From NCBI GenBank assembly GCA_046724395.1, contig JBKOWM010000020.1:12-64011 (forward strand): DNA of 64,000 nucleotides, given 5' to 3'. Under the pieces are notes generated by a model, which was given only the letters and a program-made list of their open reading frames with translations, was not told where the DNA came from and did not search any database. Made by a program: the position numbers and the translations under genes. The DNA is from Actinomycetota bacterium. Its GTDB lineage: Bacteria; Actinomycetota; UBA4738; HRBIN12. Position 1 is the stretch's first letter. Every line of letters starts with the position of its first letter. Shown here one piece after another: positions 34,328-51,503 of this stretch.

Positions 34328-34848
34328 CGCAAGCCCCGACTGGTTTGAGTCCGGCGCACGAGTGAGACGGAGGACCGAAAAGGCCCCGGAGGGAGAGGGC
34401 AGCCAAAGCCTCCGGGGCTGTTCTCCGGTTAGCGCATGAGGACACCTCGCGCTCTTCGGACGGACCGCAACCAGGAGGATATTGCGTCGCGACGAGGACA
34501 GAGGTGTGAGAAGGTCTACAGTGAGTTCCCCGGGTTAGGGATGTCGCCGAGCGACTTGGGAAGCCGCTTGTAGCAGCTCGGCAGCCTCATCGAACGCCAC
34601 GAGTGTGAGCTGGAGATGGCGTCGGCTTCGAACTTCCTTTCGTTACAGAACGACATGACGACTGGCGCTTGGTCGCGAGAACCAGAACTCTGGAACCAAT
34701 TGCTGTCTTGGGAGTTGAACGTCTGTCGGGAACCTGGGGCGTTGGACGGCGGGACACACATCATCTTCGCGATTCGACGGATCTGAAACCCAAGCCGTGC
34801 GCCGTACCCGCGCTGCGGCCGCGGGATCATACCGAGGCACGGCAGCCA

Positions 34849-35607: not shown

Positions 35608-35745
35608 CAGCCTCGATTACGCGGAATCGCGGAGCACGCGAGTACCCGGGACGGACATTCTCGAAAGCCCTCGGCCATCGTCGCGCAATCTCGTGCGGCA
35701 GACCAATCGTAGTACTTCGTCATCGAGCAGGAGGGAGAAAGAGAA

Positions 35746-36015
35746 ATGCGCGTTCGACGTCTAATCCTGGCGGCGTCTATCTCCGGCGCAATCGTGGTCG
35801 TGTCCGACGGCTCCGCGTCGGCACATGTGCACGGCATCACGCCGCTACTGCAGTGCAGCGTCGACTCATCGAACTCGGGTGGTACCGCGACGGATACGAC
35901 GCCTGCCTCGGCCACGAACGGCGGACCGATCGGCGGACTGATCCCTTCGACGGTCGGGGACGCGCCGCTCGAGATCGGGGACGGCGGATTCGACGCACCG
36001 GTCGCCTGTCCGTAG
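35746..36015 (+). CDS. small secreted protein (89 aa, signal peptide, two Cys)
   Basis: SD 'GGAGGGAG' 8 nt before ATG. Signal MRVRRLILAASISGAIVVVSDGSASA, then a Gly/Thr/Ser-rich mature region with Cys at both ends. Confidence 0.55.
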   Translation: MRVRRLILAASISGAIVVVSDGSASAHVHGITPLLQCSVDSSNSGGTATDTTPASATNGGPIGGLIPSTVGDAPLEIGDGGFDAPVACP

Positions 36016-36475: not shown

Positions 36476-36565
36476 CGGAGACGGGAGGATTCGAACCTCC
36501 GGAGGAGCTCAACACCCCTCAACCGCTTAGCAGGCGGCTGCTTTCGGCCACTCAGCCACGTCTCC
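36476..36565 (-). tRNA. tRNA-Ser (anticodon GCT)
   Basis: Reverse complement GGAGACG-TG-GCT-GAGTGGCCGAA-AGC-A-GCCGC-CUGCUAA-GCGGT-long variable arm-GGAGG-TTCGAAT-CCTCC-CGTCTCC-G. Confidence 0.8.
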
Positions 36566-37720: not shown

Positions 37721-37848
37721 TGGTCCGCCTCCTCCGGGGCCCGCTCGAGACCGAGCGGGGGCCGGTGGATGCTACCCGGCCGACGGGAGGAGGGCAGACC
37801 GGCCGAGGCCCAACGCTTGGGCGGGTCGTTCGTAGAATCGGAGTCTCC

Positions 37849-39132: not shown

Positions 39133-40016
39133 CGCTTCGGATCGGAACCCGCCGCTCGAGGTTGGCGCTCGCGCAAGCCGAAGAGGTGCGGGCGCGACTC
39201 GCCGCGCTAGGCGTGGAGTCCGAGCTCGTGCCGCTGTCGACGGCCGGCGACCGGGGCGAGTCGGCCACGGGCCCGATCGCCGGCCTGAAGGGCCTCTGGG
39301 TCAACGAAATCGTTCGCGCGCTCCGCGAAGGCGAGGTCGACCTAGCCGTGCATTCGGCGAAGGACCTGCCCGCCGAGGACGAGGACGGCGTCATCATCGC
39401 GGCCGTTCCCGAGCGCGCGAGCCCGCTCGACGTTCTCGTGACGCACGACGGTGACCTACCCAAGGGTGGTCGCGTCGGCACCTCCAGTCTGCGGCGGCAG
39501 GCGCAGATCTGGCGCTGGCGCCCGGACGTGCTGCTGAAGGACCTGCGGGGAAACGTCGATACGCGGCTCCGGAGGGTCGAGGACGGCGAGGTCGAGGCGA
39601 TCGTCATCGCGGCCGCCGGGCTCCTCCGCCTTGGCGTCGTACCCGAGCACGCAGCGCCGATGTCGCTCGCGGAAATGGTCCCGGCGCCCGGGCAGGGATG
39701 CCTCGCCGTGCAGACGATGGACGACACGACGCGCGAGGTGGTTGCCAGGCTCGATCACCGTGAGAGCCGCATCGCGCTCGAGGCCGAGCGCCGACTCACG
39801 GCGCTGCTCGGTGGAGGATGTGCCCTCCCGCTCGGCGCGAACGCGTCGATCGAGGGCGACCGCGTCCGCCTGGTCGGGGTCGTCGCGAGCGCCGACGGAG
39901 CACGAGTGGTCCGTACGGCAGTCGATGGCGGATCCGCCCGCGAGGCCGCCGATCGCGCCGCACGCGACCTCCGTGCCGGCGGCGCCGACGAGATCCTCGC
40001 CAAGGTCCGGCCGTGA
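39129..40016 (+). CDS. hemC: hydroxymethylbilane synthase (porphobilinogen deaminase)
   Basis: 'LRIGTRRSRLALAQA', 'GTSSLRRQAQI', 'KDLRGNVDTRL'. GTG start overlaps the hemA stop (GTGA). Confidence 0.9.
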   Translation: MTLRIGTRRSRLALAQAEEVRARLAALGVESELVPLSTAGDRGESATGPIAGLKGLWVNEIVRALREGEVDLAVHSAKDLPAEDEDGVIIAAVPERASPLDVLVTHDGDLPKGGRVGTSSLRRQAQIWRWRPDVLLKDLRGNVDTRLRRVEDGEVEAIVIAAAGLLRLGVVPEHAAPMSLAEMVPAPGQGCLAVQTMDDTTREVVARLDHRESRIALEAERRLTALLGGGCALPLGANASIEGDRVRLVGVVASADGARVVRTAVDGGSAREAADRAARDLRAGGADEILAKVRP

Positions 40017-40765
40017 CTCCGCGCGTCCGCCGGACGCTCGACGGCCGAACGATCGTGGTTACGCGCCCGCTCGAACACTCGGCATCGCTCGCTGCACAAC
40101 TCGAGCGCCTCGGCGCCAACGCGATCGTCGCGCCGACGATCGAGCTCATCCCCGCTCGCTCAGCGGCCTGGACGCGCGGGCTGCGTGATCTCACGGCCGG
40201 CCGGTTTGCGTGGCTGACGATCACCAGCCGACAGACGGTCGACGTTCTCCGGTCGCGGATCGATCCCGGCGCCGTACGGGCGCGGGTCGCGGCGATCGGC
40301 GACGGGACGGCCGAGGCATTCCGGTCGTGGACCGGTCGTGAGCCGGACCTGGTGCCGGCGATCTTCACGACGGCGGCGCTGGCGCGCGCGTTCCCGCGCG
40401 GGGAGGGGCGAGTGCTCTGCGCACGTGCCGACATCGCGCCCGAGGGCCTGGAAGAGGCGATCTCGGCGAAGGGTTGGACGCCCGAGCGGGTGGACGCGTA
40501 CCGCACGCGACAGCCCACGCGCCTGCCGCGGGAGGCCCGAGAGGCGCTGGCGCGCGGCGACGTCGACGCGCTGACCTTCACGAGCGCGTCGACGGTGCGC
40601 GGTTTCGTCCGGGCGGTCGGTCGGCTCGGCGGCGACCCGAAGGTCGTCTGTATCGGTCCCGTCACCGCGCACGAGGCGCGCGCGCACGGCCTCCGCGTCG
40701 ACGCCGTCGCGCGGCCGCACACGGTTGCGGGCCTCGTCGCCGCGCTCGAGCGGACGCTCCGCTGA
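40013..40765 (+). CDS. hemD: uroporphyrinogen-III synthase
   Basis: HemD-like 'LDGRTIVVTRP', 'LTFTSASTVRGF'. GTG start overlaps the hemC stop; the ORF-track N-terminal extension is discounted. Confidence 0.75.
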   Translation: MTPRVRRTLDGRTIVVTRPLEHSASLAAQLERLGANAIVAPTIELIPARSAAWTRGLRDLTAGRFAWLTITSRQTVDVLRSRIDPGAVRARVAAIGDGTAEAFRSWTGREPDLVPAIFTTAALARAFPRGEGRVLCARADIAPEGLEEAISAKGWTPERVDAYRTRQPTRLPREAREALARGDVDALTFTSASTVRGFVRAVGRLGGDPKVVCIGPVTAHEARAHGLRVDAVARPHTVAGLVAALERTLR

Positions 40766-40820
40766 TGCGATGTCACGGCATCGCGACTGCGTCGCGGGGT
40801 CCGCACGCTAGCATCCACGC

Positions 40821-41807
40821 ATGACGTCCTTTCCACGGCACCGCCCCCGGCGGCTCCGCCGGACACCCGCTCTTCGAGCCCTGATTCGCGAGACCGATCT
40901 CACGCCTCGGCGCCTGATCGCGCCCCTGTTCGTGAAGGAGGGAATGGAGGAGCCTGCGCCCATCGACTCGATGCCGGGTCAGTCCCAGCACACGCTCGAG
41001 TCGCTCCGGAAGGAGTCGGTCGAGATCGCGAGCAGGGGCGTCAACGCGTTCATGTTGTTCGCCGTTCCCGAGCAAAAGGATCCCGAGGGGTCGGAGGCGT
41101 GGAACCCGGACGGCATCGCGCAGCGAGCTATCCGGGTCCTTCGCGCAGAGCTCGGGGACGAGCACGTCATCGTCGCCGACCTGTGCCTCGACGAGTACAC
41201 CGACCACGGGCACTGCGGCGTCCTCGACGACGATGACAACGTCGACAACGACGCGACGCTCGGCCTGTACCGGCGGATCGCGCTCGCGCAGGCGGACGCC
41301 GGCGCACACATGATCGGACCGAGCGGCATGATGGATGGGCAGGTGGCGGCGCTCCGCGACGAGCTCGACGCAAACGAGTTCGAGCGCGTCGGCATCATGG
41401 CGTACGCGGCGAAGTTCGCCTCGGCGCTCTACGGCCCGTTCCGCGAGGCGGCGGAGTGCGCCCCGCGGTTCGGCGACCGCTCCGGATACCAGATGGATCC
41501 ACCGAACGCGGACGAGGCTCTTCGTGAGATCCGCACGGACATCGACGAGGGCGCCGACATCGTCATGGTCAAGCCCGCGCTTCCATATCTCGACGTGATC
41601 CGGCGGGCGAAGGACGAGACCCGCTTCCCCCTCGCGGCGTACAACGTGAGCGGCGAGTACGCGATGGTGAAGGCAGCGGTCGCCAACGGCTGGCTCGACG
41701 AGCGCCGCGCCACGCTCGAGATCCTCACGTCGATCCGTCGCGCGGGCGCCGACCTCATCCTCACGTACCACGCGAAGCAGGCGGCCGACTGGCTTGCCGG
41801 CTCGTGA
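40821..41807 (+). CDS. hemB: porphobilinogen synthase (ALA dehydratase)
   Basis: 'RRLRRTPALRALIRET', 'PLFVKEG', active-site Lys region 'DIVMVKPALPYLDVI'. Confidence 0.9.
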   Translation: MTSFPRHRPRRLRRTPALRALIRETDLTPRRLIAPLFVKEGMEEPAPIDSMPGQSQHTLESLRKESVEIASRGVNAFMLFAVPEQKDPEGSEAWNPDGIAQRAIRVLRAELGDEHVIVADLCLDEYTDHGHCGVLDDDDNVDNDATLGLYRRIALAQADAGAHMIGPSGMMDGQVAALRDELDANEFERVGIMAYAAKFASALYGPFREAAECAPRFGDRSGYQMDPPNADEALREIRTDIDEGADIVMVKPALPYLDVIRRAKDETRFPLAAYNVSGEYAMVKAAVANGWLDERRATLEILTSIRRAGADLILTYHAKQAADWLAGS

Positions 41808-41881
41808 CGTCGCACCGACGCCGCACGCTCGCCCATCAGCGACGGCCCGCCGTCACGGCGGGACGCACGGCGAAGCGCAAC

Positions 41882-43339
41882 TCAGCCCTCGTCGGCGCCG
41901 ATGATCCACTCCGTTCCCGGTCGCCGATTCGTCCGCAGCTCGCCGCCGAGGAGCACGCGCGTGAGCGTGCTCTCCTCCGCGAGCAGCTCGTCGAGCGCCG
42001 CGTGGACCTCCCGGTCCGTCGCGACGAGCGCGCCGGCCGAATCATCGGGCGACGCAACAGCCGACAGTACCGCCGCCTTTCGCATCAGCTCCTTGATGAA
42101 CGATGCCGTAACACCCTGCGTGCGCTCGACGATCGAGCCGACGTCGTCGAGACGCAGGTCGAGGCCCCGTCCGTAGAGCTGGATGAGACGCCGCCGCGCG
42201 CCCTCGTCGGGAAGAGCGATCTCGACGGCGAGGTCGACACGGCCGGGCCGGGCCGCGAGCGCCGGCTCGAGCAGGTCGGCCCGGTTCGTCGTGAGGAGGA
42301 AGGCCACGTCGGCGTCCTCCTCGATCCCATCCATCACGTTCAGGACGTCGTACAGGAACGGGTTGCTGAAGCCGGGATGCATCCCCCGCTGCTCCGCGAC
42401 GAGGTCGACGTCCTCCAACACGACGACGGAAGGTTGAAGCAAACGGGCGAGCGCCCCTGCGTGGCGCACGAGGTGCAACGCGCCACCCGTGAGCAACACG
42501 ACGGTGTGGTCGCGCGCTGCGCTCACCAGATATCGGACCGTGAGTGTCTTGCCGGTGCCGGGCGGACCGTGCAGGAGGAGCCCTCGCTTGACGTGCTGAT
42601 CGCTCCCGCGAAGTCGTTCCCTGTGCCGAGCCACCTCGAGGACCTGCCGCTCGACGGCCTCGAGGACGCCGGGCGCGAGCACCAAATCAGTGCGCTGAAC
42701 GGCGGGTCGGTCGTAGAACACGATCGGACCGGCGCCGTAGTGACCCATCGGCGACTCCCCGAACGATATGACCTGTCCGCGGAAGACGTTCAGCTCGATG
42801 GTGAGGTCGCGGACGTCCCTCAAAAAGGCGAGCCCGCGCTCCTCGTCCACCGACAGGACCTCGAGGGTGATCCCCTGGCTCTCGGCGTGCGGACTCGGAC
42901 CGCGCATCAGGACCGCGAACCTCGCTCCACCGTCGTCGACGAGGAACAGACCGAACTGAACGCAGGCCAGCGTCTCGCGCGGGCCGACCGGCAGGTTCAC
43001 GAGGTCGACGGGCCCAACGCGCACACCCATCCACTGGCCGGCGTCGAGCATGTCGGACAGCGACGAATAGTGCCGCTGCTGGCCGGTCAGGCCGACGAGC
43101 TCGTGCGAGCGGCCCTCGCCGCCGAGCCAGGCCGTCACCGCGACCTGGACGTTGACGTGGTCCCAGGGCTGGAAGGTCTCCGACAGGATCGGGACCATCG
43201 AGGTATCGGCCCCTACGTGGGCGTCGATGAGGGCCCGCACCGGCGATATACGCTCGTCTTGCGCGAGCTTGGCCATGCGCTCTGCGAAGACCTGGAAGGT
43301 GGCGGCGAATCGCTCGATCTCCTTCTCCGTTGGCTCCAT
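41882..43339 (-). CDS. AAA+ family ATPase with about 250-aa N-terminal domain
   Basis: Walker A 'GPPGTGKT', Walker B 'VVVLEDVDL', sensor '[14 protein letters not shown]'. ATG 43339 ([11 protein letters not shown]). Confidence 0.75.
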
Positions 43340-43487
43340 CGCGGCAGCGTACGTCGTTAGGATCGACCACGGCCGGAAACGAAGGCGCGATCGCGCTCGC
43401 TCGCGAGCGGTCGTGTCGCGGCGGCGCAACGAGCGCGGGCGCCGGGAACGAACGGACCTCTCGGCGACGTTAGAGAGGACGAGACAA

Positions 43488-44036
43488 ATGGGAGACCATG
43501 AAGGAGACCCGACCATGACATTCGAGACCGCCACGTTCGGAGCCGGCTGCTTCTGGGGGGTCGAGTGGGTGTTCCGCCAGGTGCCCGGAGTGATCGACGC
43601 CGTCTCCGGCTACAGCGGCGGAAGCGTAGCGAACCCCGATTACCGTCTCGTCTGTACCGGCAGAACGGGCCACGCCGAGGTCGTGCAGGTCACGTTCGAC
43701 CCGTCGGTTGTGACGTATGACCAGCTCCTCGAGGTGTTCTGGGCGATGCACGATCCGACGCAGGTCGACCGGCAGGGTCCCGACCACGGCACACAGTACC
43801 GCTCGATCGTGCTTGCCCATTCGCCCGAGCAGCGAAAGACGGCCGAGGCCTCGAAGGCCCGGGCACAGGAGCGGTTCTCCAGGCCGATCGCTACGCAGAT
43901 CGAGGACTTCGAGGCGTTCTATCCGGCGGAGGGCTACCACCAGCGGTACTACGAGAAGACCGGGCACGAGCCGTACTGCCACGTGCTGCCCGTCGACCGG
44001 CTGAGCGAGCTCGGTCTGGTTTCGACCCGCTCGTAG
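43488..44036 (+). CDS. msrA: peptide-methionine (S)-S-oxide reductase
   Basis: '[12 protein letters not shown]' active site. Alternative start ATG 43515. Confidence 0.85.
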
Positions 44037-44073
44037 GCCGACCGACGCCGCCCCGTTTGCGAGCGCCGCGATA

Positions 44074-44715
44074 GTGGGCGCGGCGGCTGAGGTGCGAGCG
44101 CTCCTCGAGGGCATTCTCGCCGGTCTCGGAATCGCGGTGCCCGTCGGCCCGATCGCCGTCCTGCTCGTCGACATGTCGATGCGTCGCGGGTTCGCGCACG
44201 CGGTGCCGGCCGCGATCGGCACGGCGAGCGCGGATCTGATGTACGCGACCGTTGCCGCCGTCCTGGGATCCGCCGCTGCCGCGGCGCTCGAACCCCTCGA
44301 GGAACCGCTCCAGGGGGTAAGCGTCCTCGTACTGCTAGCGATCGCCGGTATTCGGACGTGGCAACTGCTGCGCCGACCGCTATCCGGAGCATCGCAGCCC
44401 CCGCAGGATCGCCGCTCGGAACGGGGAGGCGTGTCGACCTTCCTCGCGTTCCTCGGGCTGACGCTCCTGAACCCGGTCACGGTCGCGTACTTCGCGGCGC
44501 TGATCCTCGGGCTGCAGGCCGAGGCGCTCATCGGCCCGGACGCGAAGGCGCTCTTCGTGGTCGGGGCGTTCGCGGCGTCGGCGGCGTGGCAGCTCACCCT
44601 GGTTGGCGCGGGCGGACTCCTCCATCACCGCCTGCCCCAGAACGCGACGCTCGTGACGGGCCTCGCCGGCAACGCAGTGATCGTGTTGCTCGCGATCAGG
44701 CTGGCGCTCGACTGA
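44074..44715 (+). CDS. LysE/RhtB-family amino-acid exporter
   Basis: Six-TM protein; 'GLGIAVPVGPIAVLLV' and the 'TLLNPVTVAYFAALI' pattern. Confidence 0.75.
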   Translation: MGAAAEVRALLEGILAGLGIAVPVGPIAVLLVDMSMRRGFAHAVPAAIGTASADLMYATVAAVLGSAAAAALEPLEEPLQGVSVLVLLAIAGIRTWQLLRRPLSGASQPPQDRRSERGGVSTFLAFLGLTLLNPVTVAYFAALILGLQAEALIGPDAKALFVVGAFAASAAWQLTLVGAGGLLHHRLPQNATLVTGLAGNAVIVLLAIRLALD

Positions 44716-45748
44716 GCCGCTCGCGAACCATGACTTCGGCGGCCTCCGACGTCGAGACGCCGTCGGCGTCGGCCCGGCGGAACACGTCCGCAAGGGTGCC
44801 GCCGATTTCTCGGATTCGGTCGTCCCGCCGGGCCTGGTCCTCCCCCAGTAGCTCAAGCGAGGCCAGGTGGATGATGCCGCCGGCGTTGACGACGAAATCG
44901 GGGGCGTACAGGACGCCGCGCTCGGCGAAGCGGTCGGCGTCCCTCGGCGAGACGAGCTGGTTGTTGGCCGCACCGGCGACGATGCGACACCGCAGCCGGG
45001 CGATCGTCTCGGCGGACAGCACGCCGCCGGTCGCGCACGGCGAGAAGACGTCGCACTCGCTCGAGAGGGCGTCCTCGGCCGCGACCGCCGTGGCGCCGAT
45101 CTCGGCGGACGCGCGCTCTGCTCGCGCCTGATCGACGTCGGCCACGGCGACCTTGGCGCCCGCGTCGGACAGGCGGCGGGCGAGCGGCTGGCCGACGGCA
45201 CCAACGCCCTGCACCACGACCGAGCGGTCGTCGAGTCCCGGCGTCCCAAAGACGTGCTCGACGCTGGCCGCGATGGCGTGGAACACACCGTCTGCGGTCG
45301 CCGGAGCGGAGCTGCCCGAGCCGCCCGCTGCCTCCGTTCTCCCGAACACCGAGGAGCACCGGCGCCCGATAACGTCCATGTCCTCGGGCGACGTGTTCAT
45401 GTCGCACGCCGTCCAGTACGTACCGTGCAGCGATTCGACGAGGTCGGCGTAGCGGAGCAGGAGACGCTCCCGTCGCTCACCGGCGGGCAGCTCCGAGACC
45501 GCGATCACGGCCTTTCCACCGCCGAGCGGCAGACCGGCGACCGCGTTCTTGCGCGTCATGGCGCCGGACAGTCGCAGCCCGTCCCCCAGGGCGTCGGCCG
45601 GCGTCTCGTAGACCTTCATGCGCGTCCCGCCGGCGCCGGGTCCGAGGGCGGTGGAATGAACGCACACGAACATCCACGCATCGAGCTCGGCGTCGAAGGC
45701 AAGCGCGACCTCCTCGCCGTCCCAGACGCTGAGGAGTTGCTCGAACAC
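44696..45748 (-). CDS. Glu/Leu/Phe/Val dehydrogenase-family (Leu/Val dehydrogenase-like)
   Basis: 'GGTRM...LSGAMTRKNAVAGLPLGGGKAVI' catalytic Lys box; NAD Rossmann 'VVVQGVGAVG'. GTG start 45748, 2 nt after the upstream small-ORF stop. Confidence 0.85.
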   Translation of the reverse strand: MFEQLLSVWDGEEVALAFDAELDAWMFVCVHSTALGPGAGGTRMKVYETPADALGDGLRLSGAMTRKNAVAGLPLGGGKAVIAVSELPAGERRERLLLRYADLVESLHGTYWTACDMNTSPEDMDVIGRRCSSVFGRTEAAGGSGSSAPATADGVFHAIAASVEHVFGTPGLDDRSVVVQGVGAVGQPLARRLSDAGAKVAVADVDQARAERASAEIGATAVAAEDALSSECDVFSPCATGGVLSAETIARLRCRIVAGAANNQLVSPRDADRFAERGVLYAPDFVVNAGGIIHLASLELLGEDQARRDDRIREIGGTLADVFRRADADGVSTSEAAEVMVRERLSRAPA

Positions 45749-45750
45749 GC

Positions 45751-45894
45751 CTACGACTGCGACGTCTCGATATGGATCGGCTGCGTCCCCGCGGTCGCGC
45801 GCTTGGCCTTCTTCTCGGCGCGCTTCTGCTTCAGGTTCTTCTGAGCCGTGCGTTTGACGTGCTTCTCCCCGCCCTTGTCCTTGCCGTGCGGCAA
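45751..45894 (-). CDS. putative small basic protein (47 aa)
   Basis: SD 'GGAGGTGA' 6 nt before TTG 45894. Product (M)PHGKDKGGEKHVKRTAQKNLKQKRAEKKAKRATAGTQPIHIETSQS. Speculative. Confidence 0.3.
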   Translation of the reverse strand: MPHGKDKGGEKHVKRTAQKNLKQKRAEKKAKRATAGTQPIHIETSQS

Positions 45895-45965
45895 CGCCTT
45901 CACCTCCGTTCCTGGTCCCACGGCATGATGCCGCTCGTGCCGACGTCCGACAAGGAACGGCCCGT

Positions 45966-46382
45966 CTACCAGGTGTCGTCGAGCCCGACCCAGTCGCGGA
46001 ACTGTTCCTTTCCGCCGCGGATCGCCCAGTCGGAGTCGACCGTCAACTTGCTCGAGATCCCGCCGCGTGGACGCGTCTCGAAGACCAGCCGGAGCCGCAC
46101 CGGCTGGTACACCAGGATGAGGTGTTCGTACACGACGTCGAGAAAGCGCTCGTACGAGACCGCGGTGTCCCTCCACTGATACAGGTATTCCTTTAGTGAC
46201 TTCAGCTCGATGACGCTCTCGTTCGGATAAAACGTGACGTACAGCGTCCCGAAGTCGGGCTGGGCACGCGCGCCCAGAAATGTGACCTCCGGCGCCTTGT
46301 GCTTGAGCTCCATGGCGCCACCGGGGTTCGGAAGTGCCTTGAGGACGAAAGGATCGATGTCGTCGTAGCGCTTGGCGCTCAT
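45966..46382 (-). CDS. QueF-family (T-fold) protein, apparently lacking the catalytic Cys
   Basis: QueF signature 'ESVIELKSLKEYLYQW' is present. The position of the QueF 'CPEFTSLCP...QPDF' box reads 'APEVTFLGARAQPDF', with no Cys, by my alignment from memory. Confidence 0.65.
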   Translation of the reverse strand: MSAKRYDDIDPFVLKALPNPGGAMELKHKAPEVTFLGARAQPDFGTLYVTFYPNESVIELKSLKEYLYQWRDTAVSYERFLDVVYEHLILVYQPVRLRLVFETRPRGGISSKLTVDSDWAIRGGKEQFRDWVGLDDTW

Positions 46383-46535
46383 ACAACGACCGTAGGCGCC
46401 GGGCGAGCTCGAGGCAAGCGGGTCCGGCACGAACGCGGTTCGGCGTCGACGAGCGAGGGCGCGGATCAGCCGCAGTCGGTTGGCCCTGCCGGAGGGGTCA
46501 CGCGGCCCGGCGTCGGCGAGGTGACCTAAGGCAGG

Positions 46536-47195
46536 CTAGACGAGGTCACGCACCGCGTCGCGAACATCCTTTCGGATGCCCGAGACGAACGGGACCTCCG
46601 CCTTGGTGAAGCGGCGCGCCTCGGCCTCGCGTAGTCGGCGGATGCAATCGACGATACGGCCGAGATCGTCCGCTTCGAAGGCCAGGATCCATTCCCAGTC
46701 GTTGATGCCGAAGGCGCTCGTCGTGTTGGCCAGCACGTCAGGGAACTCGCGGCCGATCACGCCGTGCTCGCGCAGGAGCGCGGCTCGCTCGTCGCGCGGC
46801 AGCAAATACCACTCGGGCGTACGGACGAACGGGTAGACCGAGACGTACCGCCTCGGTGCGTCGCCCCTCACGAACGCGGGTGCGTGGTCGGGGGTGAACT
46901 CTGCGGGCTTGACGACCCCCATGAAGGACCACGTCATTTCTAGCGCCCGGCCGAGCGCCGTCCGTCGGAAGCGGACGATCGCGTCCTGCACCGCGTCCGC
47001 CGTCGGCGAAACGAGCCACAGCATCACGTCGGCATCGGCGCGGAACCCGACCGTCGAGTACACGCCGCGCACCGAGACGTCGTCGGACACTTCCTTGAAG
47101 AGGTTCTCGACCTCCTGTGCGGCGTCGTCCGGATCCAGCTCGATATCGGGATCCGCTGCGAACACGGGGTACACCGCGTACAGCGATTCGCTCAT
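46536..47195 (-). CDS. chdC: coproheme decarboxylase (chlorite-dismutase family)
   Basis: 219 aa; 'MSESLYAVYPVF', 'GVYSTVGFRADADVMLWL', 'YVSVYPFVRTPEWYLL'. ATG 47195 overlaps the cgoX stop (ATGA). Confidence 0.8.
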   Translation of the reverse strand: MSESLYAVYPVFAADPDIELDPDDAAQEVENLFKEVSDDVSVRGVYSTVGFRADADVMLWLVSPTADAVQDAIVRFRRTALGRALEMTWSFMGVVKPAEFTPDHAPAFVRGDAPRRYVSVYPFVRTPEWYLLPRDERAALLREHGVIGREFPDVLANTTSAFGINDWEWILAFEADDLGRIVDCIRRLREAEARRFTKAEVPFVSGIRKDVRDAVRDLV

Positions 47196-48592
47196 CGCAC
47201 CCGCTCTCCTTCGAATCGATCGGCCCGACCGGCCAAGAACGCGGCGACTCGGTCCGCCGCCACGGCACCCTGACGAACGGCGTCGGGAACGCCGGCGCCG
47301 CGATACGCCTGCCCCGCGAGGACGAGACCCTCGGGAAGCGACTGCTCGATCCGCTCGACGCGCTCCAGATGCCCGACCACGTACTGCGGCATCGCCGCGG
47401 GCCATCGCACCACGGCCGAGGCCTCCGGGCGCTCGGGCAGCGGCAGCAGGGCCGCGAGCTGCCGCGCTACTCCATCGACGATGTCGTCGTCCGGCTGGGC
47501 GACGAGGTCCTCGACGCCGGCGGCGCCGACGAAGCACCGCACGACGGCTCGGGAGCCGAACGACGGATCGGGCCATTTCCTGGACACGATCGTGCACGCG
47601 GTCATGGCCAGGCGGCCCCGCGGAACGACGAACCCCGACGAGTCGGGGAGCGGGTCGTTCGTTCCCTCGCCGTACACGAGCTGGACGACGGCCGTGTCGA
47701 CGTGCCGGATCGCTTGCAGCTCCGGCGCCGCCGCGGGGGCGACGTGCGCGAGCAGGCGCGCCGTCGCAAACGCGGGCGAGGTGACGACGACGGCGTCGGC
47801 GTCGATGTCGCCGTCCGGCGCCGACACCACGTATGAGTCACCGGATCGCCGCAGTGATGTTGCGGGCGCTCCCGTGCGAATCCGTGCCGCGCCGATTCGG
47901 GCACCGAGCGCCGAAGGAAGGCGCCCGAGCCCGCCGCGCAGTCGGACGAACATGGGAACCGGCGTTGCGCGCCGGGACGCGGCGACCGCGGCCCGCGCCC
48001 CCCTCAGGAGGCTGCCGTGTTCGCGCTCCCAGTCGGCGAGCACCGGAAACGTCGCCCGAACGCCGAGCCGGTCGACGTCCCCCGCGAACAGTCCTCCGAG
48101 CAGGGGCGCCACGAGCGCGTCGGTTGCCTCGTCCCCGATCCGGCGGCGGAGCAGCGCACCGAGGGACTCGTCGCCGTGGTCGGCGCGAGGCTTCGTTATG
48201 AGATCGAGCGCCGCTCGAAGCTTTCCTCGCTGTGACATTCCGGGCCATCGCCACAGCTCGAGCGGATCGGTCGGTATACCGAACGGACCCGACGGGAACG
48301 GAACGAGCCCGCGGCGGGTGAATAGGTGCGTCCGCGACGTCGCCGCCGGAAGGAGATCCGCGCCCATCCCGAGCTCGCGAACGAGATCGACGGCCCACGG
48401 CTTGCGGAACAGAAGTGAATCGGGACCCGCCTCGACCTGCACGCCGGCCACTTCGATCGACGCGATCTTGCCGCCGATTCGTCCATCCCTCTCGAGGACA
48501 ACGACATCGGCCTCGGGGTCTGCAGTCCGGATCCGATGGGCGGCGACGAGACCGGAAATGCCCGCGCCCACGACGACGATGCGCCCGCTCAC
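47192..48592 (-). CDS. cgoX: coproporphyrinogen III oxidase / protoporphyrinogen oxidase (HemY-type)
   Basis: FAD Rossmann 'RIVVVGAGISGLVAA', 'ERDGRIGGKI'. GTG 48592 overlaps the cpfC stop (GTGA) with 'GAGGAG' 8 nt upstream. Confidence 0.85.
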   Translation of the reverse strand: MSGRIVVVGAGISGLVAAHRIRTADPEADVVVLERDGRIGGKIASIEVAGVQVEAGPDSLLFRKPWAVDLVRELGMGADLLPAATSRTHLFTRRGLVPFPSGPFGIPTDPLELWRWPGMSQRGKLRAALDLITKPRADHGDESLGALLRRRIGDEATDALVAPLLGGLFAGDVDRLGVRATFPVLADWEREHGSLLRGARAAVAASRRATPVPMFVRLRGGLGRLPSALGARIGAARIRTGAPATSLRRSGDSYVVSAPDGDIDADAVVVTSPAFATARLLAHVAPAAAPELQAIRHVDTAVVQLVYGEGTNDPLPDSSGFVVPRGRLAMTACTIVSRKWPDPSFGSRAVVRCFVGAAGVEDLVAQPDDDIVDGVARQLAALLPLPERPEASAVVRWPAAMPQYVVGHLERVERIEQSLPEGLVLAGQAYRGAGVPDAVRQGAVAADRVAAFLAGRADRFEGERVR

Positions 48593-49566
48593 CCTCCGAA
48601 CTCCTCGACGAACGCACGACGCGCGACGTTTGCTAGGACGCGCACGAACTCCGGGTCCGCGTTCGGCATCTGGGTGCGAGCGAACGCCATCCCCGCATCC
48701 TCGGCGACCTGCCGCGCCTCGATGTCGACGTCGTAGAGGATCTCGAGGTGGTCCGCCACGAAGCCGGCAGGGCACACGACGATGCCGCCTCGTCCGGAGC
48801 CGCCCAGATCGGCGATGACGTCTTCGAGCGGCGGCCCCCACCATGGGTCGGACGTCCGCCCCGCACTCTGCCAGGCCGTCGTCCAGTCGGTCACCCCAGT
48901 GCTGAGCGCGACGAGCTCGGCTGTCTCGCGCAGGCCCGCGTGGTATCGGCACCCCGTCTTGCAGAGGTCGGCGTCGCAGGACTTGCACCGCCGTGATCCG
49001 TCGTCGTCCGTACGCACCGGAAGGCTGTGCGCCGAGAAGACGACCGCGGTGGCGTCCCGGACATCGTCCGGGATCATGGCGAGCGCGGCCGTAACGCGAC
49101 TCGACAGGAATCGGACGAAGGCGGGCTCGTCGTGGAAACTCCGGACGAACGCGAACGCCGGACCCTCGCCGCCGGCGGCCTCGCGGACGCGGTCGATGTA
49201 CGTCTCCACCGACATCCCGGACCAGTGTGGAGCCATCACGACGCCGACGGCCCGTTCGATGCCCTCGGTCGTCATGGTCTCGACCGTCTCGTGGATGAAC
49301 GGCGGCGAGTGCTTCATCCCGAGGTACGCCACGTAGTCGTCGTCCTCGGTCTCGTTCAGCACGCGCTCGAGTCCCGCGGCCTGCTCGCGCGTGATGTCGA
49401 GCAGCGGGAAGCGATTGCCGATCGCGGCGTACCGCTCGCGAAGCTCGGCGAGCTGCTCGGGCGCCGGCGGGCGGCCCCCACGGATGTCGGTGTAGTAGCG
49501 CTCGACGTCGTCCGGCCCGCTCGCAGTGCCGTACGCCATCACCAGGACGCCGATCGGCCCGTTCAC
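48589..49566 (-). CDS. cpfC: coproporphyrin ferrochelatase
   Basis: 'IGVLVMAYGTASGPDDVERYYTDI', 'VVFSAHSLP', 'HLEILYDVDIEA'. GTG 49566 overlaps the hemE stop (GTGA). Confidence 0.85.
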   Translation of the reverse strand: MNGPIGVLVMAYGTASGPDDVERYYTDIRGGRPPAPEQLAELRERYAAIGNRFPLLDITREQAAGLERVLNETEDDDYVAYLGMKHSPPFIHETVETMTTEGIERAVGVVMAPHWSGMSVETYIDRVREAAGGEGPAFAFVRSFHDEPAFVRFLSSRVTAALAMIPDDVRDATAVVFSAHSLPVRTDDDGSRRCKSCDADLCKTGCRYHAGLRETAELVALSTGVTDWTTAWQSAGRTSDPWWGPPLEDVIADLGGSGRGGIVVCPAGFVADHLEILYDVDIEARQVAEDAGMAFARTQMPNADPEFVRVLANVARRAFVEEFGG

Positions 49567-50606
49567 ACCGCGGTCCGCTCGCTCTCGATGTGCACTAGAT
49601 CGACGACGCGCTGGACGTTCTCCACCGGCGTGTGCGGCAGCACGCCGTGCCCAAGGTTGAAGACGTGCCCGTCGCGTCCGCCGGCGCGCTTCAGGACGCG
49701 CCGGGCATCGTCGGCGAGCGACTCCCACGGTCCGAGGAGCGCCACGGGGTCGAGATTCCCCTGCACGGCGCGGTCCGGGCCGATCCGCTCCCACGCGACG
49801 TCGAGCGGCACGCGCCAGTCCACGCCGATGGCATCGCCACCCGCCCGGCGCATCGCGCCGAGCAGCTCGCCGGTTCCGACGCCGAAGTGAATGGTCGGCA
49901 CCCCGAGTGCCGACAGGCGGTCGAAGAGGGATCGCATGACCGGCTGCACGCGGGCGACGTAGTCGTCGACGGAGACGGATCCGACCCAGCTGTCGAAGAC
50001 CTGCACGGCCTGGACACCGGCCTCGATCTGCCGGCGCAGGTGCGCAACGGTGAGATCACCAAGCCACTCGAGGAGCGACCGCCAGGTGTCCGAGTCGGAT
50101 CGCATGAACGCGCGCGTTCGGTCGTGCGTGCGCGAGGGGCCGCCGTCGACGAGATATGCGGCCAGCGTGAATGGCGCGCCGGCAAAGCCGATGAGCGGGA
50201 CGTCGAGCTCCTTGCGCAAGAGGCGCACCGCCTCGAGGACGTACGGAACCTCCGCCTCCGGTTCGAGCCGACGCAATCGCGCGACGTCCGCGCGCGATCG
50301 AAGCGGCTCGGCGACGACGGGTCCAGTCCCGGGCTCGACTCGGACGTCGACACCGAGCGCCTCGACCGGCACCATGATGTCGGAGAACAGGATCGCGGCG
50401 TCGAATTCGAATCGGCGCAGCGGCTGCATCGTGATCTCGACGGCGAGATCCGGGTGCCTGACGGCCTCGAGAATGTCGTCGTTCCGACGCAGCTCTCGGT
50501 ATTCGGGGAGGTACCTGCCGGCCTGCCGCATGAACCACACCGGCGTGCGGTCGACCGACTGCCGCCGGCACGCGCGCAGGAACCGATCGTTCACGGGGGG
50601 CGACAT
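49563..50606 (-). CDS. hemE: uroporphyrinogen decarboxylase
   Basis: 'NDRFLRACRRQSVDRTPVWFMRQAGRYLPEY' N-terminal signature. ATG 50606 chosen by homolog-like N-terminus; upstream in-frame Met codons exist. Confidence 0.9.
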   Translation of the reverse strand: MSPPVNDRFLRACRRQSVDRTPVWFMRQAGRYLPEYRELRRNDDILEAVRHPDLAVEITMQPLRRFEFDAAILFSDIMVPVEALGVDVRVEPGTGPVVAEPLRSRADVARLRRLEPEAEVPYVLEAVRLLRKELDVPLIGFAGAPFTLAAYLVDGGPSRTHDRTRAFMRSDSDTWRSLLEWLGDLTVAHLRRQIEAGVQAVQVFDSWVGSVSVDDYVARVQPVMRSLFDRLSALGVPTIHFGVGTGELLGAMRRAGGDAIGVDWRVPLDVAWERIGPDRAVQGNLDPVALLGPWESLADDARRVLKRAGGRDGHVFNLGHGVLPHTPVENVQRVVDLVHIESERTAV

Positions 50607-50663
50607 CACCACGCCCAGCATACGAACAGGCATGCGAAGCGGCCCAGCTCTTACGATCCCGGC

Positions 50664-51503
50664 GTGGATCACCGGCGCGCGCTCGACGATCTCGTCGCCT
50701 GGGCGTCCTCGAACGACAACATCCGCCTCCTCGTGCTGACCGGATCACTGGCTCGAAACCCCGAGGAGTCCGATCCGCTGTCCGACGTCGACGTCGAGTT
50801 GTACGTGCGCCAGCCCGCGACGCTCCTGGAATCGCGGTACTGGTACTCAACTTTCGGCGACGTCCTGGCCGTGGAGGAACTCGAGAACGAGGGATGGCAC
50901 CCGACGCGGCTCGTGTACTACGTCGACGGCAAGATCGACTTCATGATCGCCCCGGTGAACGCCCTCGACCAGGGCGTTTCGTACGTCCGCGGCTTCCGCG
51001 TGCTGATCGACAAGGACGGGCTCGGCGCGCGGCTGAGCGGCGACGCGGCGAGCGCGACGCCGCCGACGGCAGAGGAGTTCCGCAGGTGCGTCGACTGGTT
51101 CGCCGCGGCCGCGATCATGACCGCCAAGGCCGTCGTGCGGGACGAGCCGTGGATGGCCAAGCGTCGCGACGAGGACCTCAAAGAGGAGCTGCTGCGGATG
51201 ACCGAGTGGGATCACCGCTCGAGGCATGGATGGGGGTTCGACACCTGGCACCTCGGCGTTCACATGCGTACATGGATGGACGCCGACGTCCAGGCATCGC
51301 TCGAGCGCTGTTGGGGGCGGTTCGCGCTCGGGGAGACGGCGGCCGCGCTGGAGGCGTCAATTCGACTGTTCGAGCGCCTGGGGCGCCGGACCGCGAACGC
51401 GCTCGGCGTAGGCGGCTTCGACCTGCGGCCGGTTCGGACGGAAGTCGACCGCATCCTTCTCCTTCCTCGGCAACTTCCTCGGCATTCCCCGGGGCCGCCG
51501 TGA
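50664..51503 (+). CDS. ANT(6)/AadK-like nucleotidyltransferase
   Basis: 'NDNIRLLVLTGSLARNPEESDPLSDVDVELYV' and the C-terminal 'EFRRCVDWFAAAAIMTAKAVVRDEPWMAKRRDEDLKEELLRM' pattern. GTG 50664; divergent from hemE. Confidence 0.7.
   Translation: MDHRRALDDLVAWASSNDNIRLLVLTGSLARNPEESDPLSDVDVELYVRQPATLLESRYWYSTFGDVLAVEELENEGWHPTRLVYYVDGKIDFMIAPVNALDQGVSYVRGFRVLIDKDGLGARLSGDAASATPPTAEEFRRCVDWFAAAAIMTAKAVVRDEPWMAKRRDEDLKEELLRMTEWDHRSRHGWGFDTWHLGVHMRTWMDADVQASLERCWGRFALGETAAALEASIRLFERLGRRTANALGVGGFDLRPVRTEVDRILLLPRQLPRHSPGPP

What the first reader, a model, noticed from the sequence alone, without database searches (positions are those of the whole stretch)
45751..46382. QueF-family protein apparently missing the catalytic cysteine, co-operonic with a small basic ORF and a Leu/Val dehydrogenase
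The QueF signature E(S/L)K(S/A)hK(L/Y)Y is present ('ESVIELKSLKEYLYQW'). Where unimodular QueF has 'CPEFTSLCP...QPDF', this protein reads 'APEVTFLGARAQPDF', so the thioimide-forming Cys seems replaced.
If correct, this is a non-canonical T-fold protein (binding or a different chemistry) rather than a preQ0 reductase. It is followed, with 2-nt spacing, by a 47-aa Lys-rich ORF (TTG start, good SD) and then an amino-acid dehydrogenase.
Basis: partly seen in the sequence, partly recalled or inferred. Interest (0 to 1): 0.5.

Follow-up and report, generated by a model that had tools for sequence, protein, structure and literature searches.

The report
Cysteine-less QueF-like methionine-cycle protein
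This gene is labelled a queuosine-pathway nitrile reductase (QueF) but belongs to a widespread, undescribed sister family in bacteria and phages that has lost the catalytic cysteine and sits among methionine, SAM-cycle and folate genes, so it probably does a different job there.

Summary
Window 45966-46382 (-) encodes a 138-aa QueF-fold protein. It keeps the NADPH (QueF) motif, the catalytic Asp and the substrate-anchoring Glu. Gly37 sits where QueF has its thioimide-forming Cys.

This is a family trait: 252 of 252 distinct relatives have Gly there and no conserved Cys anywhere. They also share an invariant C-terminal extension (DSDW..RGG.E..W..W). The family occurs in 368 species genomes across several phyla and in 92 uncultivated viral contigs. 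Public databases call it "7-cyano-7-deazaguanine reductase".

Its neighbours are not queuosine genes:
- In Cytophagales and relatives it lies between the two halves of a split metH, behind a SAM riboswitch.
- In Niastella/Longitalea it lies between a Cys/Met PLP enzyme and homoserine dehydrogenase, also behind a SAM riboswitch.
- In Deltaproteobacteria it follows thyX.
- In phages it lies directly before ahcY, often after metK, and sometimes next to metE.

The window's own neighbours (47-aa ORF, ELFV dehydrogenase, hemQ) are lineage-specific. A relative has hemQ, small ORF and dehydrogenase with no QueF-like gene. The small ORF is real, but it is coupled to the dehydrogenase.

Best reading: a methionine/SAM-cycle enzyme, probably an NADPH-dependent folate one-carbon reductase that works like MTHFR. 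The exact reaction is inferred, not shown.

The parts
45966..46382 (-). Cys-less QueF-like gene ('Q'), 138 aa plus stop
   Evidence: for ORF and codon bias. Pfam QueF at 63.4 bits. TIGR03139 at 74.7 bits, below the 86.9 cutoff; alignment to 4F8B. AF2 model with T-fold, best PDB match QueF.
46272..46274 (-). Codon GGC for Gly37, at the position of the catalytic Cys55 of B. subtilis QueF
   Evidence: alignment. Gly in 252 of 252 family members.
46251..46262 (-). Q41-P-D43-F44, equivalent to the QPDF of QueF with the general-acid Asp62. Invariant in the family.
46185..46208 (-). E59-L-K-S-L-K-E-Y66, the retained QueF (NADPH-binding) motif
   Evidence: Motif definition from PMC5372742.
46146..46157 (-). 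S76-Y77-E78-R79. E78 is equivalent to the substrate-anchoring Glu97. S76 replaces the invariant Phe of canonical QueF, and R79 is specific to this family.
45969..46037 (-). Family-specific C-terminal extension D116-S-D-W ... R122-G-G ... E126 ... W131 ... W138, absent from canonical QueF
   Evidence: Low pLDDT in the monomer model.
46383..46535 (-). 153-nt spacer between the hemQ stop and the Q start. Together with Q it is absent from the related locus L167. No Rfam family and no sigma-70-like promoter found.
45895..45965 (-). 71-nt leader between the Q stop and the small ORF. It is conserved with L167, where it directly follows hemQ, and contains the GGAGGTGA Shine-Dalgarno.
45751..45894 (-). 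47-aa Lys-rich ORF (TTG start). A real conserved small protein that belongs with the dehydrogenase, not with Q.
   Evidence: GC3 0.94. 21 homologous clusters at 75-98% identity. Always 2 nt before the ELFV dehydrogenase, with or without Q.
44696..45748 (-). ELFV-family amino-acid dehydrogenase, 350 aa, specificity unknown. A neighbour, not part of the Q function.
   Evidence: ELFV_dehydrog and ELFV_dehydrog_N; best NCBIfam match Trp_DH_ScyB at 269 bits, far below the 600 cutoff.
46536..47195 (-). hemQ (chlorite-dismutase-like), the upstream neighbour and last gene of the hemE-hemH-hemY-hemQ block into which Q is inserted
   Evidence: Chlor_dismutase at 218.7 bits; 219-aa gene calls in L164 and L167.

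Best explanation
The gene encodes a member of a conserved clade that lacks the catalytic cysteine and is sister to unimodular QueF.

**What the protein keeps and loses.** It keeps the T-fold, the NADPH-binding QueF motif, the acid Asp and the Glu that anchors a 2-amino-4-oxo-pyrimidine ring (guanine or pterin type). It has lost the nucleophilic Cys, so it cannot form the thioimide that nitrile reduction needs.

**Where it works.** It works in the methionine / S-adenosylmethionine (activated methyl) cycle, at its junction with one-carbon folate metabolism.

**Most likely mechanism (inferred).** It acts as a flavin-free, NADPH-dependent reductase that delivers a hydride directly to the one-carbon unit on N5 of tetrahydrofolate, converting 5,10-methylene-THF (as the 5-iminium) to 5-methyl-THF. 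It would therefore work like MTHFR, although it is not homologous to it. Its product feeds MetH or MetE, which consume the homocysteine released by AhcY.

**Geometric rationale (my inference).** In QueF the hydride acceptor is the exocyclic carbon on C7 of 7-deazaguanine. With the pyrimidine edge anchored the same way, that carbon lies where the C11 carbon on N5 of a pterin would lie. An iminium is already electrophilic and needs no Cys. The Asp could protonate N10 to open the ring.

**In this window.** The gene is a laterally inserted singleton between hemQ and an unrelated small-ORF/dehydrogenase pair.

**Confidence by tier.**
- Not a preQ0 reductase and a distinct family: about 0.9.
- Methionine/SAM-cycle/folate role: about 0.75.
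- Specifically MTHFR-like chemistry: about 0.3.
For: **Shown: family and residues.**
- Cys is replaced by Gly in 252 of 252 members. D43, E78 and E59/K64/Y66 are invariant.
- The best structural match is QueF.
- 1308 database clusters, 368 species genomes and 92 viral contigs carry it.

**Shown: bacterial context.**
- In 14 Cytophagales-type loci the order is SAM-I riboswitch, homocysteine S-methyltransferase domain gene, Q, then the MetH remainder (Pterin_bind + B12 + activation). The Q ATG overlaps the upstream stop by 11-20 nt in most of the six such loci checked.
- In 5 Niastella/Longitalea loci the order is SAM-I riboswitch, Cys_Met_Meta_PP, Q, homoserine dehydrogenase.
- A full-length metH lies divergently next to Q in Kangiellaceae, Pleionea and Chitinophagales loci.
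- thyX lies directly upstream in 15 deltaproteobacterial loci.
- panBCD lies upstream in Syntrophorhabdus.
- Overall 42 of 70 non-actinobacterial loci carry metH, thyX, metE, or the Cys/Met PLP enzyme with homoserine dehydrogenase nearby.

**Shown: viral context.**
- Of 80 viral loci, 27 have ahcY (directly downstream of Q in 25), 15 have metK, 3 have metE, and 3 have an MTA/SAH-nucleosidase-like gene. The union is 34 of 80.
- In phage backbones that are otherwise syntenic, Q is present or absent exactly in front of ahcY.

**Shown: no queuosine link.** No QueC, QueD or Tgt was found in the window plus 168 loci.

**Inferred or from the literature.**
- Direct hydride transfer from NAD(P)H to methylene-H4F without flavin has a precedent in mycobacterial Mfr (PMC11094777 abstract).
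- Family-specific invariant Arg/Lys (K29, R79, R96, R98) and the change of the invariant Phe to Ser76 would fit a larger, anionic ligand such as a folate (inference).
Against: - No enzymology, and no genome-wide test of whether Q replaces metF or folA.
- A canonical MTHFR (PF02219) follows in the same operon in L036 and L051. Q is therefore not simply a MetF replacement there.
- thyX and panB adjacency fits any enzyme that makes THF or CH2-THF (DHFR-like or FolD-like) as well as, or better than, MTHFR.
- The tight coupling to ahcY could instead point to adenosine or homocysteine handling.
- In Actinomycetota, including this window, the gene is a singleton in unrelated contexts with no riboswitch. 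The pathway assignment for this particular gene is transferred from relatives about 60% identical.
- Two jumbo-phage loci place it beside FolE, PTPS/QueD-like and radical-SAM genes.
- Neighbour genes were called with my own ORF script.
Confidence: 0.4

Rival explanations
1. It is another NADPH-dependent folate or pterin oxidoreductase. Candidates are a dihydrofolate reductase analogue, a methylene-THF dehydrogenase working in the reductive direction (FolD-like), or a repair reductase for oxidised 5-methyl-folate or quinonoid dihydropterin. Any of these would supply THF or CH2-THF to ThyX, PanB, MetF and MetH.
For: - thyX-Q operons in 15 loci mirror the classical thyA-folA pairing, and panB is nearby.
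- Coexistence with canonical MetF in L036 and L051 is natural under this reading.
- The same retained NADPH motif and pterin-type Glu apply.
- No folA or thyA was seen near Q in any locus.
- A Pterin_4a gene sits in the corresponding neighbourhood of the Q-less relative L167. This is weak evidence.
Against: - To my knowledge, DHFR and FolD are not expected members of SAM-riboswitch regulons, yet Q lies inside S-box operons in 19 loci of two architectures.
- Phage coupling is to ahcY, metK and metE, not to thymidylate synthase.
Confidence: 0.2
2. It is a non-catalytic or accessory ligand-binding protein of the methyl cycle. For example, it could be a folate, purine or NADPH sensor or carrier that modulates AhcY or methionine synthase, or an enzyme that removes adenosine or another AhcY product to pull SAH hydrolysis forward.
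For: - Q has been repeatedly and independently inserted exactly upstream of ahcY, with overlapping or abutting reading frames.
- It sits between the two MetH polypeptides.
- Loss of a catalytic residue is typical of pseudo-enzymes.
- The C-terminal extension, poorly predicted in the monomer, could be an interaction surface.
Against: - The remaining catalytic and cofactor residues (D43, E78, E59, K64, Y66) are 100% invariant across phyla and viruses. That argues for retained chemistry and NADPH use.
- Q occurs with thyX, or as a singleton, without ahcY or metH. It is therefore not an obligate partner of one enzyme.
Confidence: 0.15
3. It still acts in 7-deazaguanine metabolism by a Cys-independent reaction, for example reduction or binding of a non-nitrile 7-deazaguanine derivative, free or in DNA/tRNA. 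Under this reading the SAM-cycle genes in phages merely support DNA hypermodification.
For: - Its closest homologues are QueF enzymes.
- In the jumbo-phage locus L149 the order is FolE, two unannotated ORFs, PTPS/QueD-like, MazG, radical SAM, MetK, Q, AhcY. L155 has the radical-SAM gene before MetK, Q and AhcY.
- Phage paralogues of queuosine T-fold enzymes that lost a catalytic Cys have been proposed to have new deazaguanine chemistry (DpdL; 10.1101/2023.04.13.536721).
Against: - Only 2 of 168 loci show such genes, and no QueC, QueD or Tgt/DpdA hit occurs elsewhere.
- The bacterial contexts are S-box methionine operons and thyX.
- The invariant Phe of QueF that lines the preQ0 site is replaced by Ser.
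Confidence: 0.08
4. It is a decaying or inactive QueF, a pseudo-gene product of no function in this genome.
For: - Loss of the essential Cys.
- Below the TIGR03139 cutoff.
- Singleton in an unrelated heme cluster with a locally lower GC of 61-63%.
Against: - Intact ORF with strong codon bias.
- 42 invariant positions in a 28-sequence alignment that spans several bacterial phyla, and 56-60% identity to the window protein in genomes of other phyla.
- 252 of 252 members have the same Gly and a conserved extra C-terminal motif.
Confidence: 0.02

Closest known systems
Unimodular QueF (B. subtilis YkvM; PDB 4F8B/4FGC), NADPH-dependent preQ0 reductase, EC 1.7.1.13
   Same: - T-fold; about 30% identity, E 6e-13.
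- QueF/NADPH motif E-x-K-S-h-K-x-Y, QPDF with the acid Asp, the substrate-anchoring Glu, and PRGGIS.
   Different: - Catalytic Cys55 is replaced by Gly, back-door Cys99 by Phe, and the invariant Phe before the Glu by Ser.
- New invariant residues K29, R79, R96 and R98.
- A roughly 23-residue C-terminal extension, DSDW..RGG.E..W..W.
- Never found next to queC/D/E/tgt; found instead with metH, metE, ahcY, metK and thyX.
QueF-L (Pyrobaculum calidifontis archaeosine synthase; PDB 5JYX/5K0P)
   Same: A QueF paralogue with a T-fold that has changed chemistry.
   Different: It shows the opposite pattern of loss. QueF-L keeps the Cys and forms the thioimide but has lost NADPH-dependent reduction. The window family keeps the NADPH motif and has lost the Cys. 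Only 14% identity in the fold match.
MTHFR: MetF (FAD, TIM barrel, PF02219) and mycobacterial flavin-independent Mfr
   Same: - Proposed reaction and pathway position: NAD(P)H-driven reduction of methylene-THF to methyl-THF for methionine synthase.
- Mfr shows that direct hydride transfer without flavin is feasible (PMC11094777).
- Operon partners are shared: metH and SAM-riboswitch regulons.
   Different: - No homology and a different fold, T-fold versus (beta-alpha)8.
- MetF is present alongside Q in L036 and L051.
- The activity of Q is untested.
DpdL (phage QueD/PTPS paralogue proposed as CDG decarboxylase)
   Same: A T-fold enzyme of the queuosine pathway whose paralogue, often carried by phages, lost the catalytic Cys (CxxxHGH to LxxxHRHxF) and is predicted to have a new function (10.1101/2023.04.13.536721).
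   Different: - A different T-fold family (PTPS, not QueF).
- DpdL stays in 7-deazaguanine gene clusters, whereas Q sits in SAM-cycle and methionine clusters.

Membership tests
QueF (preQ0 reductase, EC 1.7.1.13) | Catalytic Cys (Cys55 in B. subtilis, Cys194 in V. cholerae) that forms the thioimide | tested here: not met
   Gly37 aligns to Cys55. No Cys in the loop in 252 of 252 members. PMC5372742 section 3.4 excludes sequences that lack this residue from QueF.
QueF (preQ0 reductase, EC 1.7.1.13) | Asp62/201 general acid in QPDF | tested here: met
   D43 is invariant.
QueF (preQ0 reductase, EC 1.7.1.13) | Glu97/234 that anchors the substrate | tested here: met
   E78 is invariant.
QueF (preQ0 reductase, EC 1.7.1.13) | QueF motif E(S/L)K(S/A)hK(L/Y)(Y/F/W) for NADPH binding | tested here: met
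   E59-L-K-S-L-K-E-Y66. Actual NADPH binding is not testable here.
QueF (preQ0 reductase, EC 1.7.1.13) | Score above the curated equivalog cutoff (TIGR03139 QueF-II) | tested here: not met
   74.7 bits against a cutoff of 86.9. The Pfam domain model PF14489 is passed.
QueF (preQ0 reductase, EC 1.7.1.13) | Genomic association with queC/queD/queE/folE/tgt | tested here: not met
   No QueC, QueD or Tgt in the window plus 168 loci. FolE, PTPS and a radical-SAM gene occur together only in L149; L155 has the radical-SAM gene.
QueF (preQ0 reductase, EC 1.7.1.13) | preQ0 to preQ1 activity | not testable with these tools
   Needs an enzyme assay or complementation of an E. coli queF deletion.
QueF-L (archaeosine synthase) | Conserved Cys (Cys21) forming a thioimide with preQ0-tRNA; no NADPH-dependent reduction | tested here: not met
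   The Cys is absent and the NADPH motif is present. 14% identity in the fold match.
GTP cyclohydrolase I (FolE) | Match to PF01227 / FolE as the best structural neighbour | tested here: not met
   No PF01227 hit. FolE structures rank below QueF: E 3e-5 against 8e-9, with 16% identity.
MTHFR (MetF/Mfr) | (beta-alpha)8 barrel, PF02219 | tested here: not met
   The protein is a T-fold and only PF14489 is matched. The claim is that it 'works like' MTHFR, not that it is a member.
MTHFR (MetF/Mfr) | NAD(P)H-dependent reduction of 5,10-methylene-THF | not testable with these tools
   Inferred from context only.
Cys-less QueF-like clade (defined here) | E-[VFLI]-T-F-L-G-x(3)-Q-P-D-F, S-Y-E-R, P-R-G-G-I-S-S and the C-terminal D-S-D-W..R-G-G-x-E..W..W | tested here: met
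   The window protein carries all of these motifs.

The most novel reading that the evidence does not exclude
The family is a new, fourth structural solution for making 5-methyl-THF: a 15-kDa, flavin-free, NADPH-dependent T-fold methylene-THF reductase derived from the nitrile reductase QueF by loss of the covalent Cys. It is regulated by SAM riboswitches in Bacteroidota. Phages spread it as an auxiliary gene, translationally coupled to ahcY and metK, to keep the host methyl cycle running during infection.
Probability: 0.3. Interest if true: 0.85.

Novelty: new variant of a known kind. Interest (0 to 1): 0.7.

Why it matters
- **Annotation.** More than 1300 sequence clusters and hundreds of genomes and viral contigs carry a protein that every source I saw (NCBI, JGI) names "7-cyano-7-deazaguanine reductase". 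It fails the published definition of QueF. Queuosine-pathway reconstructions and viral auxiliary-gene surveys that rely on that name are wrong for these genes.
- **Biology.** The family has a tightly conserved active site. It lies inside S-box methionine operons, between the halves of split MetH, after thyX, and directly before phage ahcY. This makes it a strong candidate for an unrecognised step or isozyme at the junction of the folate and methyl cycles, and for a new class of phage auxiliary metabolic gene.
- **Testability.** It is small, soluble-looking and easy to test.

Tried and rejected
- **Functional link to the small ORF and dehydrogenase: rejected.** tblastn of the 47-aa ORF, the dehydrogenase and HemQ found nothing in 83 related loci. 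L167/L168 have the same cluster without Q.
- **Riboswitch or other Rfam element near Q: none found.** Searched the window, 13 Actinomycetota loci and 10 viral loci. The promoter/terminator scan was uninformative.
- **Q as a straight replacement for MetF: weakened.** MTHFR lies in the same operon in L036 and L051.
- **Informative fusions: little gained.** P0124 is a Lar-type zinc ribbon fused to Q. P0186 (FliM) looks chimeric.
- **Sequenced phage isolates (INPHARED): none.** The only hit is a 40%-identical relative in a Staphylococcus phage record, whose type was not examined.
- **PHROGs.** Only a generic 'GTP cyclohydrolase' phrog was matched.
- **Literature.** Seven of the nine searches looked for a Cys-less QueF, or for QueF together with folate, methionine or phage SAM-cycle genes. 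None returned a description of this family.
- **Queuosine genes in the window.** Pfam annotation of about 30 window genes found none. This covers only 64 kb of the genome.
Full report
**1. The observation**

The minus-strand ORF at window 45966-46382 (ATG at 46382) encodes 138 aa with the codon-position GC pattern of a real gene in this roughly 68% GC window (GC1/2/3 = 0.62/0.38/0.86).
- It matches Pfam QueF (PF14489, E 2.3e-17, 63.4 bits, cutoff 27.3).
- It falls below the curated cutoff of the preQ1-synthase equivalog TIGR03139 (74.7 against 86.9 bits).
- phmmer against all PDB chains finds B. subtilis QueF (4F8B, E 5.7e-13; the C55A mutant 4FGC scores slightly better).

In that alignment 'PEFTSLCPKTGQPDF' pairs with 'PEVTFLGAR-AQPDF'.
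- The thioimide Cys55 corresponds to Gly37 (codon GGC at 46272-46274).
- Asp62 corresponds to D43, Glu97 to E78, and the QueF/NADPH motif to E59-L-K-S-L-K-E-Y66.
- The protective Cys99 corresponds to Phe80.

An AlphaFold2 model (pLDDT 76) has the T-fold. The refutation routes it named (a correctly placed Cys, or a better fit to FolE) both fail.

**2. A family trait, not an accident**

A search of 5.8 billion proteins returned 1308 relatives. All 120 listed, down to about 60% identity, read E-[VFLI]-T-F-L-G-x3-Q-P-D-F.

I aligned 252 distinct members with the C-terminal motif, drawn from protein hits, bacterial loci and viral loci, together with 17 canonical unimodular QueFs.
- Gly37 is present in 100% of members. 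No Cys occurs in the loop, and the most Cys-rich column anywhere reaches only 34%.
- Invariant in both groups: E32, Q41-P-D43, E59, K64, R71, E78, P94 and R106-G-G.
- Family-specific invariants: F35 (Ser in QueF), S76 (an invariant Phe in QueF), Y77, R79, R96 and R98.
- Also family-specific is a C-terminal extension, D116-S-D-W, G123-G and W138, which is absent from QueF.

An exhaustive HMMER scan of 1.84 billion cluster representatives shows two Cys-less architectures. One carries the DSDW extension, as in the window. The other is a shorter form of 115-125 aa. Canonical 'FTSLCP.TGQPDF' QueFs appear only from E of about 1e-13.

The published working definition of QueF requires Cys55, Asp62, Glu97 and the QueF motif, and treats sequences lacking any of these as non-QueF (PMC5372742, section 3.4). 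By that test this protein is not QueF. It is the mirror image of QueF-L, which keeps the Cys and has lost NADPH-dependent reduction. Every source name I retrieved is nevertheless "7-cyano-7-deazaguanine reductase".

**3. Distribution**

One genome per species (185,579 species) gave 368 carriers. They include Actinomycetota MAGs (the window's closest relatives, 83-88% identical), Syntrophorhabdus and other Deltaproteobacteria, Chitinophagales (Niastella, Longitalea), Cytophagales/Cyclobacteriaceae, Flavobacteriales, Kangiellaceae/Pleionea, and MAGs labelled Bacillota.

Identity to the window protein is still 56-60% in other phyla. IMG/VR holds 92 relatives on viral contigs up to 338 kb, including two giant-virus MAGs. 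Several of these loci carry tRNA arrays, tmRNA, NrdAB and phage-family proteins. No sequenced phage isolate has a member of the family.

**4. Context in the window is not conserved**

- *Gene order.* On the minus strand the order is hemE, hemH, hemY, hemQ, a 153-nt spacer, Q, a 71-nt leader, the 47-aa ORF, a 2-nt gap, and the ELFV dehydrogenase. LysE and msrA follow on the other strand.
- *The small ORF.* It has GC3 of 0.94, a GGAGGTGA Shine-Dalgarno and 21 homologous clusters at 75-98% identity, so it is a real gene.
- *Not linked to Q.* The small ORF, the dehydrogenase and HemQ are absent from all 83 related bacterial loci. In L167/L168 (small ORF 77% identical) the order is hemQ, small ORF, dehydrogenase, Pterin_4a, with no Q. 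The leader in front of the small ORF aligns across the junction.
- *Insertion or deletion.* Q plus its upstream spacer is therefore an indel at this site. This is consistent with its local GC dip to 61-63%.
- *Other Actinomycetota.* Q sits after a sugar ABC transporter, between arg and his operons, or next to a PNPOx-like gene.
- *No other signals.* No Rfam element, promoter-like site or convincing terminator was found around Q. About 30 window genes annotated by Pfam include no queuosine, folate or methionine genes.

**5. Context elsewhere is consistent**

I called ORFs in all loci, clustered them by BLASTP, and annotated the recurrent neighbours with Pfam.

- *(a) Cytophagales, Cyclobacteriaceae and some Flavobacteriales (14 loci).* The order is a homocysteine S-methyltransferase-domain gene (about 338 aa), Q, then a roughly 895-aa protein with Pterin_bind + B12-binding + Met_synt_B12. 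Q thus lies between the halves of a split MetH. Its ATG overlaps the upstream stop by 11-20 nt in most of the six loci checked. In L036 and L051 a canonical MTHFR follows.
- *(b) Kangiellaceae, Pleionea, Chitinophagales and one Bacteroidetes MAG.* A full-length metH lies divergently next to Q.
- *(c) Niastella and Longitalea (5 loci).* The order is Cys_Met_Meta_PP, Q, homoserine dehydrogenase.
- *(d) Deltaproteobacteria and Syntrophorhabdaceae (15 loci).* thyX is directly upstream, with a gap of about 20 nt or a 4-nt overlap. It is often preceded by a 123-aa membrane protein with CxxC motifs that has no Pfam match.
- *(e) Syntrophorhabdus aromaticivorans type.* panB, panC and panD lie upstream.

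Rfam then showed a SAM-I riboswitch (59-89 bits) directly in front of the operon in 14 of 14 type (a) loci and 5 of 5 type (c) loci. In four type (b) loci the riboswitch stands in front of the divergent metH. In total, 42 of 70 non-actinobacterial loci carry metH, thyX, metE, or the Cys/Met PLP enzyme with homoserine dehydrogenase nearby.

**6. Viral context**

Counts among the 80 viral loci:

| Neighbour | Loci |
|---|---|
| S-adenosylhomocysteine hydrolase (ahcY) | 27, directly downstream of Q in 25 |
| SAM synthetase (metK) | 15 |
| Cobalamin-independent methionine synthase (metE) | 3 |
| PNP_UDP_1 (MTA/SAH-nucleosidase-like), with a PRTase nearby | 3 |
| AdoMet decarboxylase | 5 |
| Any of ahcY, metK, metE or nucleosidase-like | 34 |

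I then fetched 80 viral loci through their AhcY. Q is present in 18, and in 17 of those it lies immediately upstream with abutting or overlapping frames. In several phage backbones that are otherwise syntenic, the only difference is the presence or absence of Q in front of ahcY: L250 against L237, L180 against L184, and L176 against L178. None of these loci has MetF, MetH, FolA, ThyA or FolD.

**7. Queuosine genes**

The exception is the jumbo-phage locus L149, with the order FolE, two unannotated ORFs, PTPS/QueD-like, MazG, radical SAM, MetK, Q, AhcY. L155 has the radical-SAM gene before MetK, Q and AhcY. This keeps a 7-deazaguanine-related reading alive at low probability.

**8. Interpretation**

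*Shown.* The protein is a conserved QueF paralogue without the catalytic Cys. It retains the cofactor motif and the residues that anchor the substrate. In two unrelated operon types it is co-regulated with methionine biosynthesis by SAM riboswitches. It is physically coupled to MetH, ThyX and phage AhcY/MetK/MetE.

*Inferred.* The ligand is a 2-amino-4-oxo-pyrimidine heterocycle, because the T-fold Glu is retained. In these pathways that heterocycle is folate.

The reaction I think most likely is NADPH-dependent reduction of the N5-bound one-carbon unit, from 5,10-methylene-THF to 5-methyl-THF. The reasons are these:
- MTHFR is the NAD(P)H-dependent folate step that commits one-carbon units to the methyl cycle. 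To my knowledge it is a typical S-box regulon member; B. subtilis YitJ fuses a homocysteine methyltransferase domain to MTHFR.
- The carbon reduced by QueF, exocyclic on C7 of the deazapurine, is positionally equivalent to C11 on N5 of a pterin anchored the same way.
- An iminium needs no thiol activation.
- Flavin-free direct hydride transfer to methylene-H4F has a precedent in Mfr (PMC11094777).

For a phage, ahcY plus an unregulated source of methyl-THF would pull SAH through homocysteine to methionine and relieve inhibition of its methyltransferases.

*Against this reading.* MetF coexists with Q in two operons. thyX and panB fit an enzyme that makes THF or CH2-THF (DHFR-like or FolD-like) equally well. 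The ahcY coupling could mean an accessory or product-removal role. I therefore put about 0.9 on "not QueF, distinct family", about 0.75 on a methionine/SAM-cycle/folate role, and about 0.3 on MTHFR-like chemistry.

**9. Novelty**

Seven of the nine full-text searches, plus reading of the QueF, QueF-L and phage 7-deazaguanine papers, found no description of this clade or of its link to methionine and the SAM cycle. The library does not cover most subscription journals, so prior description cannot be excluded. I classify it as a new variant of a known kind: the QueF/T-fold superfamily with a changed catalytic set and a changed pathway.

**10. Caveats**

- Neighbour genes were called with a simple ORF script and clustered at 60% coverage. 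Only cluster representatives were checked with Pfam.
- Many loci within a context type are phylogenetically related. The number of independent associations is about six bacterial architectures plus at least three or four phage backbones, not the raw counts.
- The viral status of the IMG/VR contigs was not independently verified.
- The functional inference for the window's own gene is transferred from relatives about 55-62% identical.

Noticed in passing
window 45751-45894 (-) and 44696-45748 (-); L167 5001-6528: A conserved 47-aa Lys-rich protein always lies 2 nt before an ELFV-family amino-acid dehydrogenase of unknown specificity (best NCBIfam match Trp dehydrogenase ScyB, far below cutoff). 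In L167/L168 a pterin-4a-carbinolamine dehydratase gene follows the dehydrogenase. The function of the pair is unknown.
   Followed up: partly
window 45895-45965 (-): The roughly 70-nt leader upstream of the small ORF is conserved between the window and L167, even though different genes precede it (Q here, hemQ there). It may be a regulatory element. No Rfam match.
   Followed up: partly
window 37702-50672: A coproporphyrin-type heme cluster (hemA, hemC, hemB ... hemQ, hemY, hemH, hemE) is split by unrelated genes: an AAA ATPase, msrA, LysE, the dehydrogenase pair and Q.
   Followed up: partly
window 1-217 (-); 32366-32438 (-); 36476-36565 (-); about 26000-36000: An SRP RNA is cut by the window edge, and there are two tRNA genes. 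GC falls to 63-65% over about 26-36 kb next to the tRNAs, with few long high-GC3 ORFs. This may be an integrated element.
   Followed up: no
L016-L019, L040-L082 (for example L002 7536-7907): A 123-aa protein with predicted membrane segments and a CxxC...CxxC ribbon, and no Pfam match, lies in 20 Deltaproteobacteria/Syntrophorhabdus-type loci. It sits directly upstream of Q or, where thyX is present, just before thyX. Separately, P0124 fuses a Lar-type zinc ribbon to the Cys-less QueF-like domain.
   Followed up: no
P0194: A 2676-aa protein with 8 separate QueF-like stretches (27% identity) was found in the representative search. It was not examined.
   Followed up: no
L143, L151, L131 (tRNA arrays); L134 11708-12105, L147 14010-14384: Viral contigs carrying Q have large tRNA arrays (more than 30 tRNAs within 12 kb of L143). 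Two encode tmRNA-like genes a few kb from Q-ahcY.
   Followed up: no
L149 2299-9693: A jumbo-phage contig of 210 kb carries FolE, two unannotated ORFs, PTPS/QueD-like, MazG, radical SAM (QueE-like), MetK, Q and AhcY in one block. This possible 7-deazaguanine module lacks QueC and abuts the SAM-cycle module.
   Followed up: partly
L084, L086, L089, L094, L108 (about 5800-9000): Another group of viral loci places Q next to AdoMet decarboxylase, an ATE_C-like (arginyl-tRNA-protein transferase C-terminal) protein, a cupin and DUF2452. This context is unexplained.
   Followed up: no
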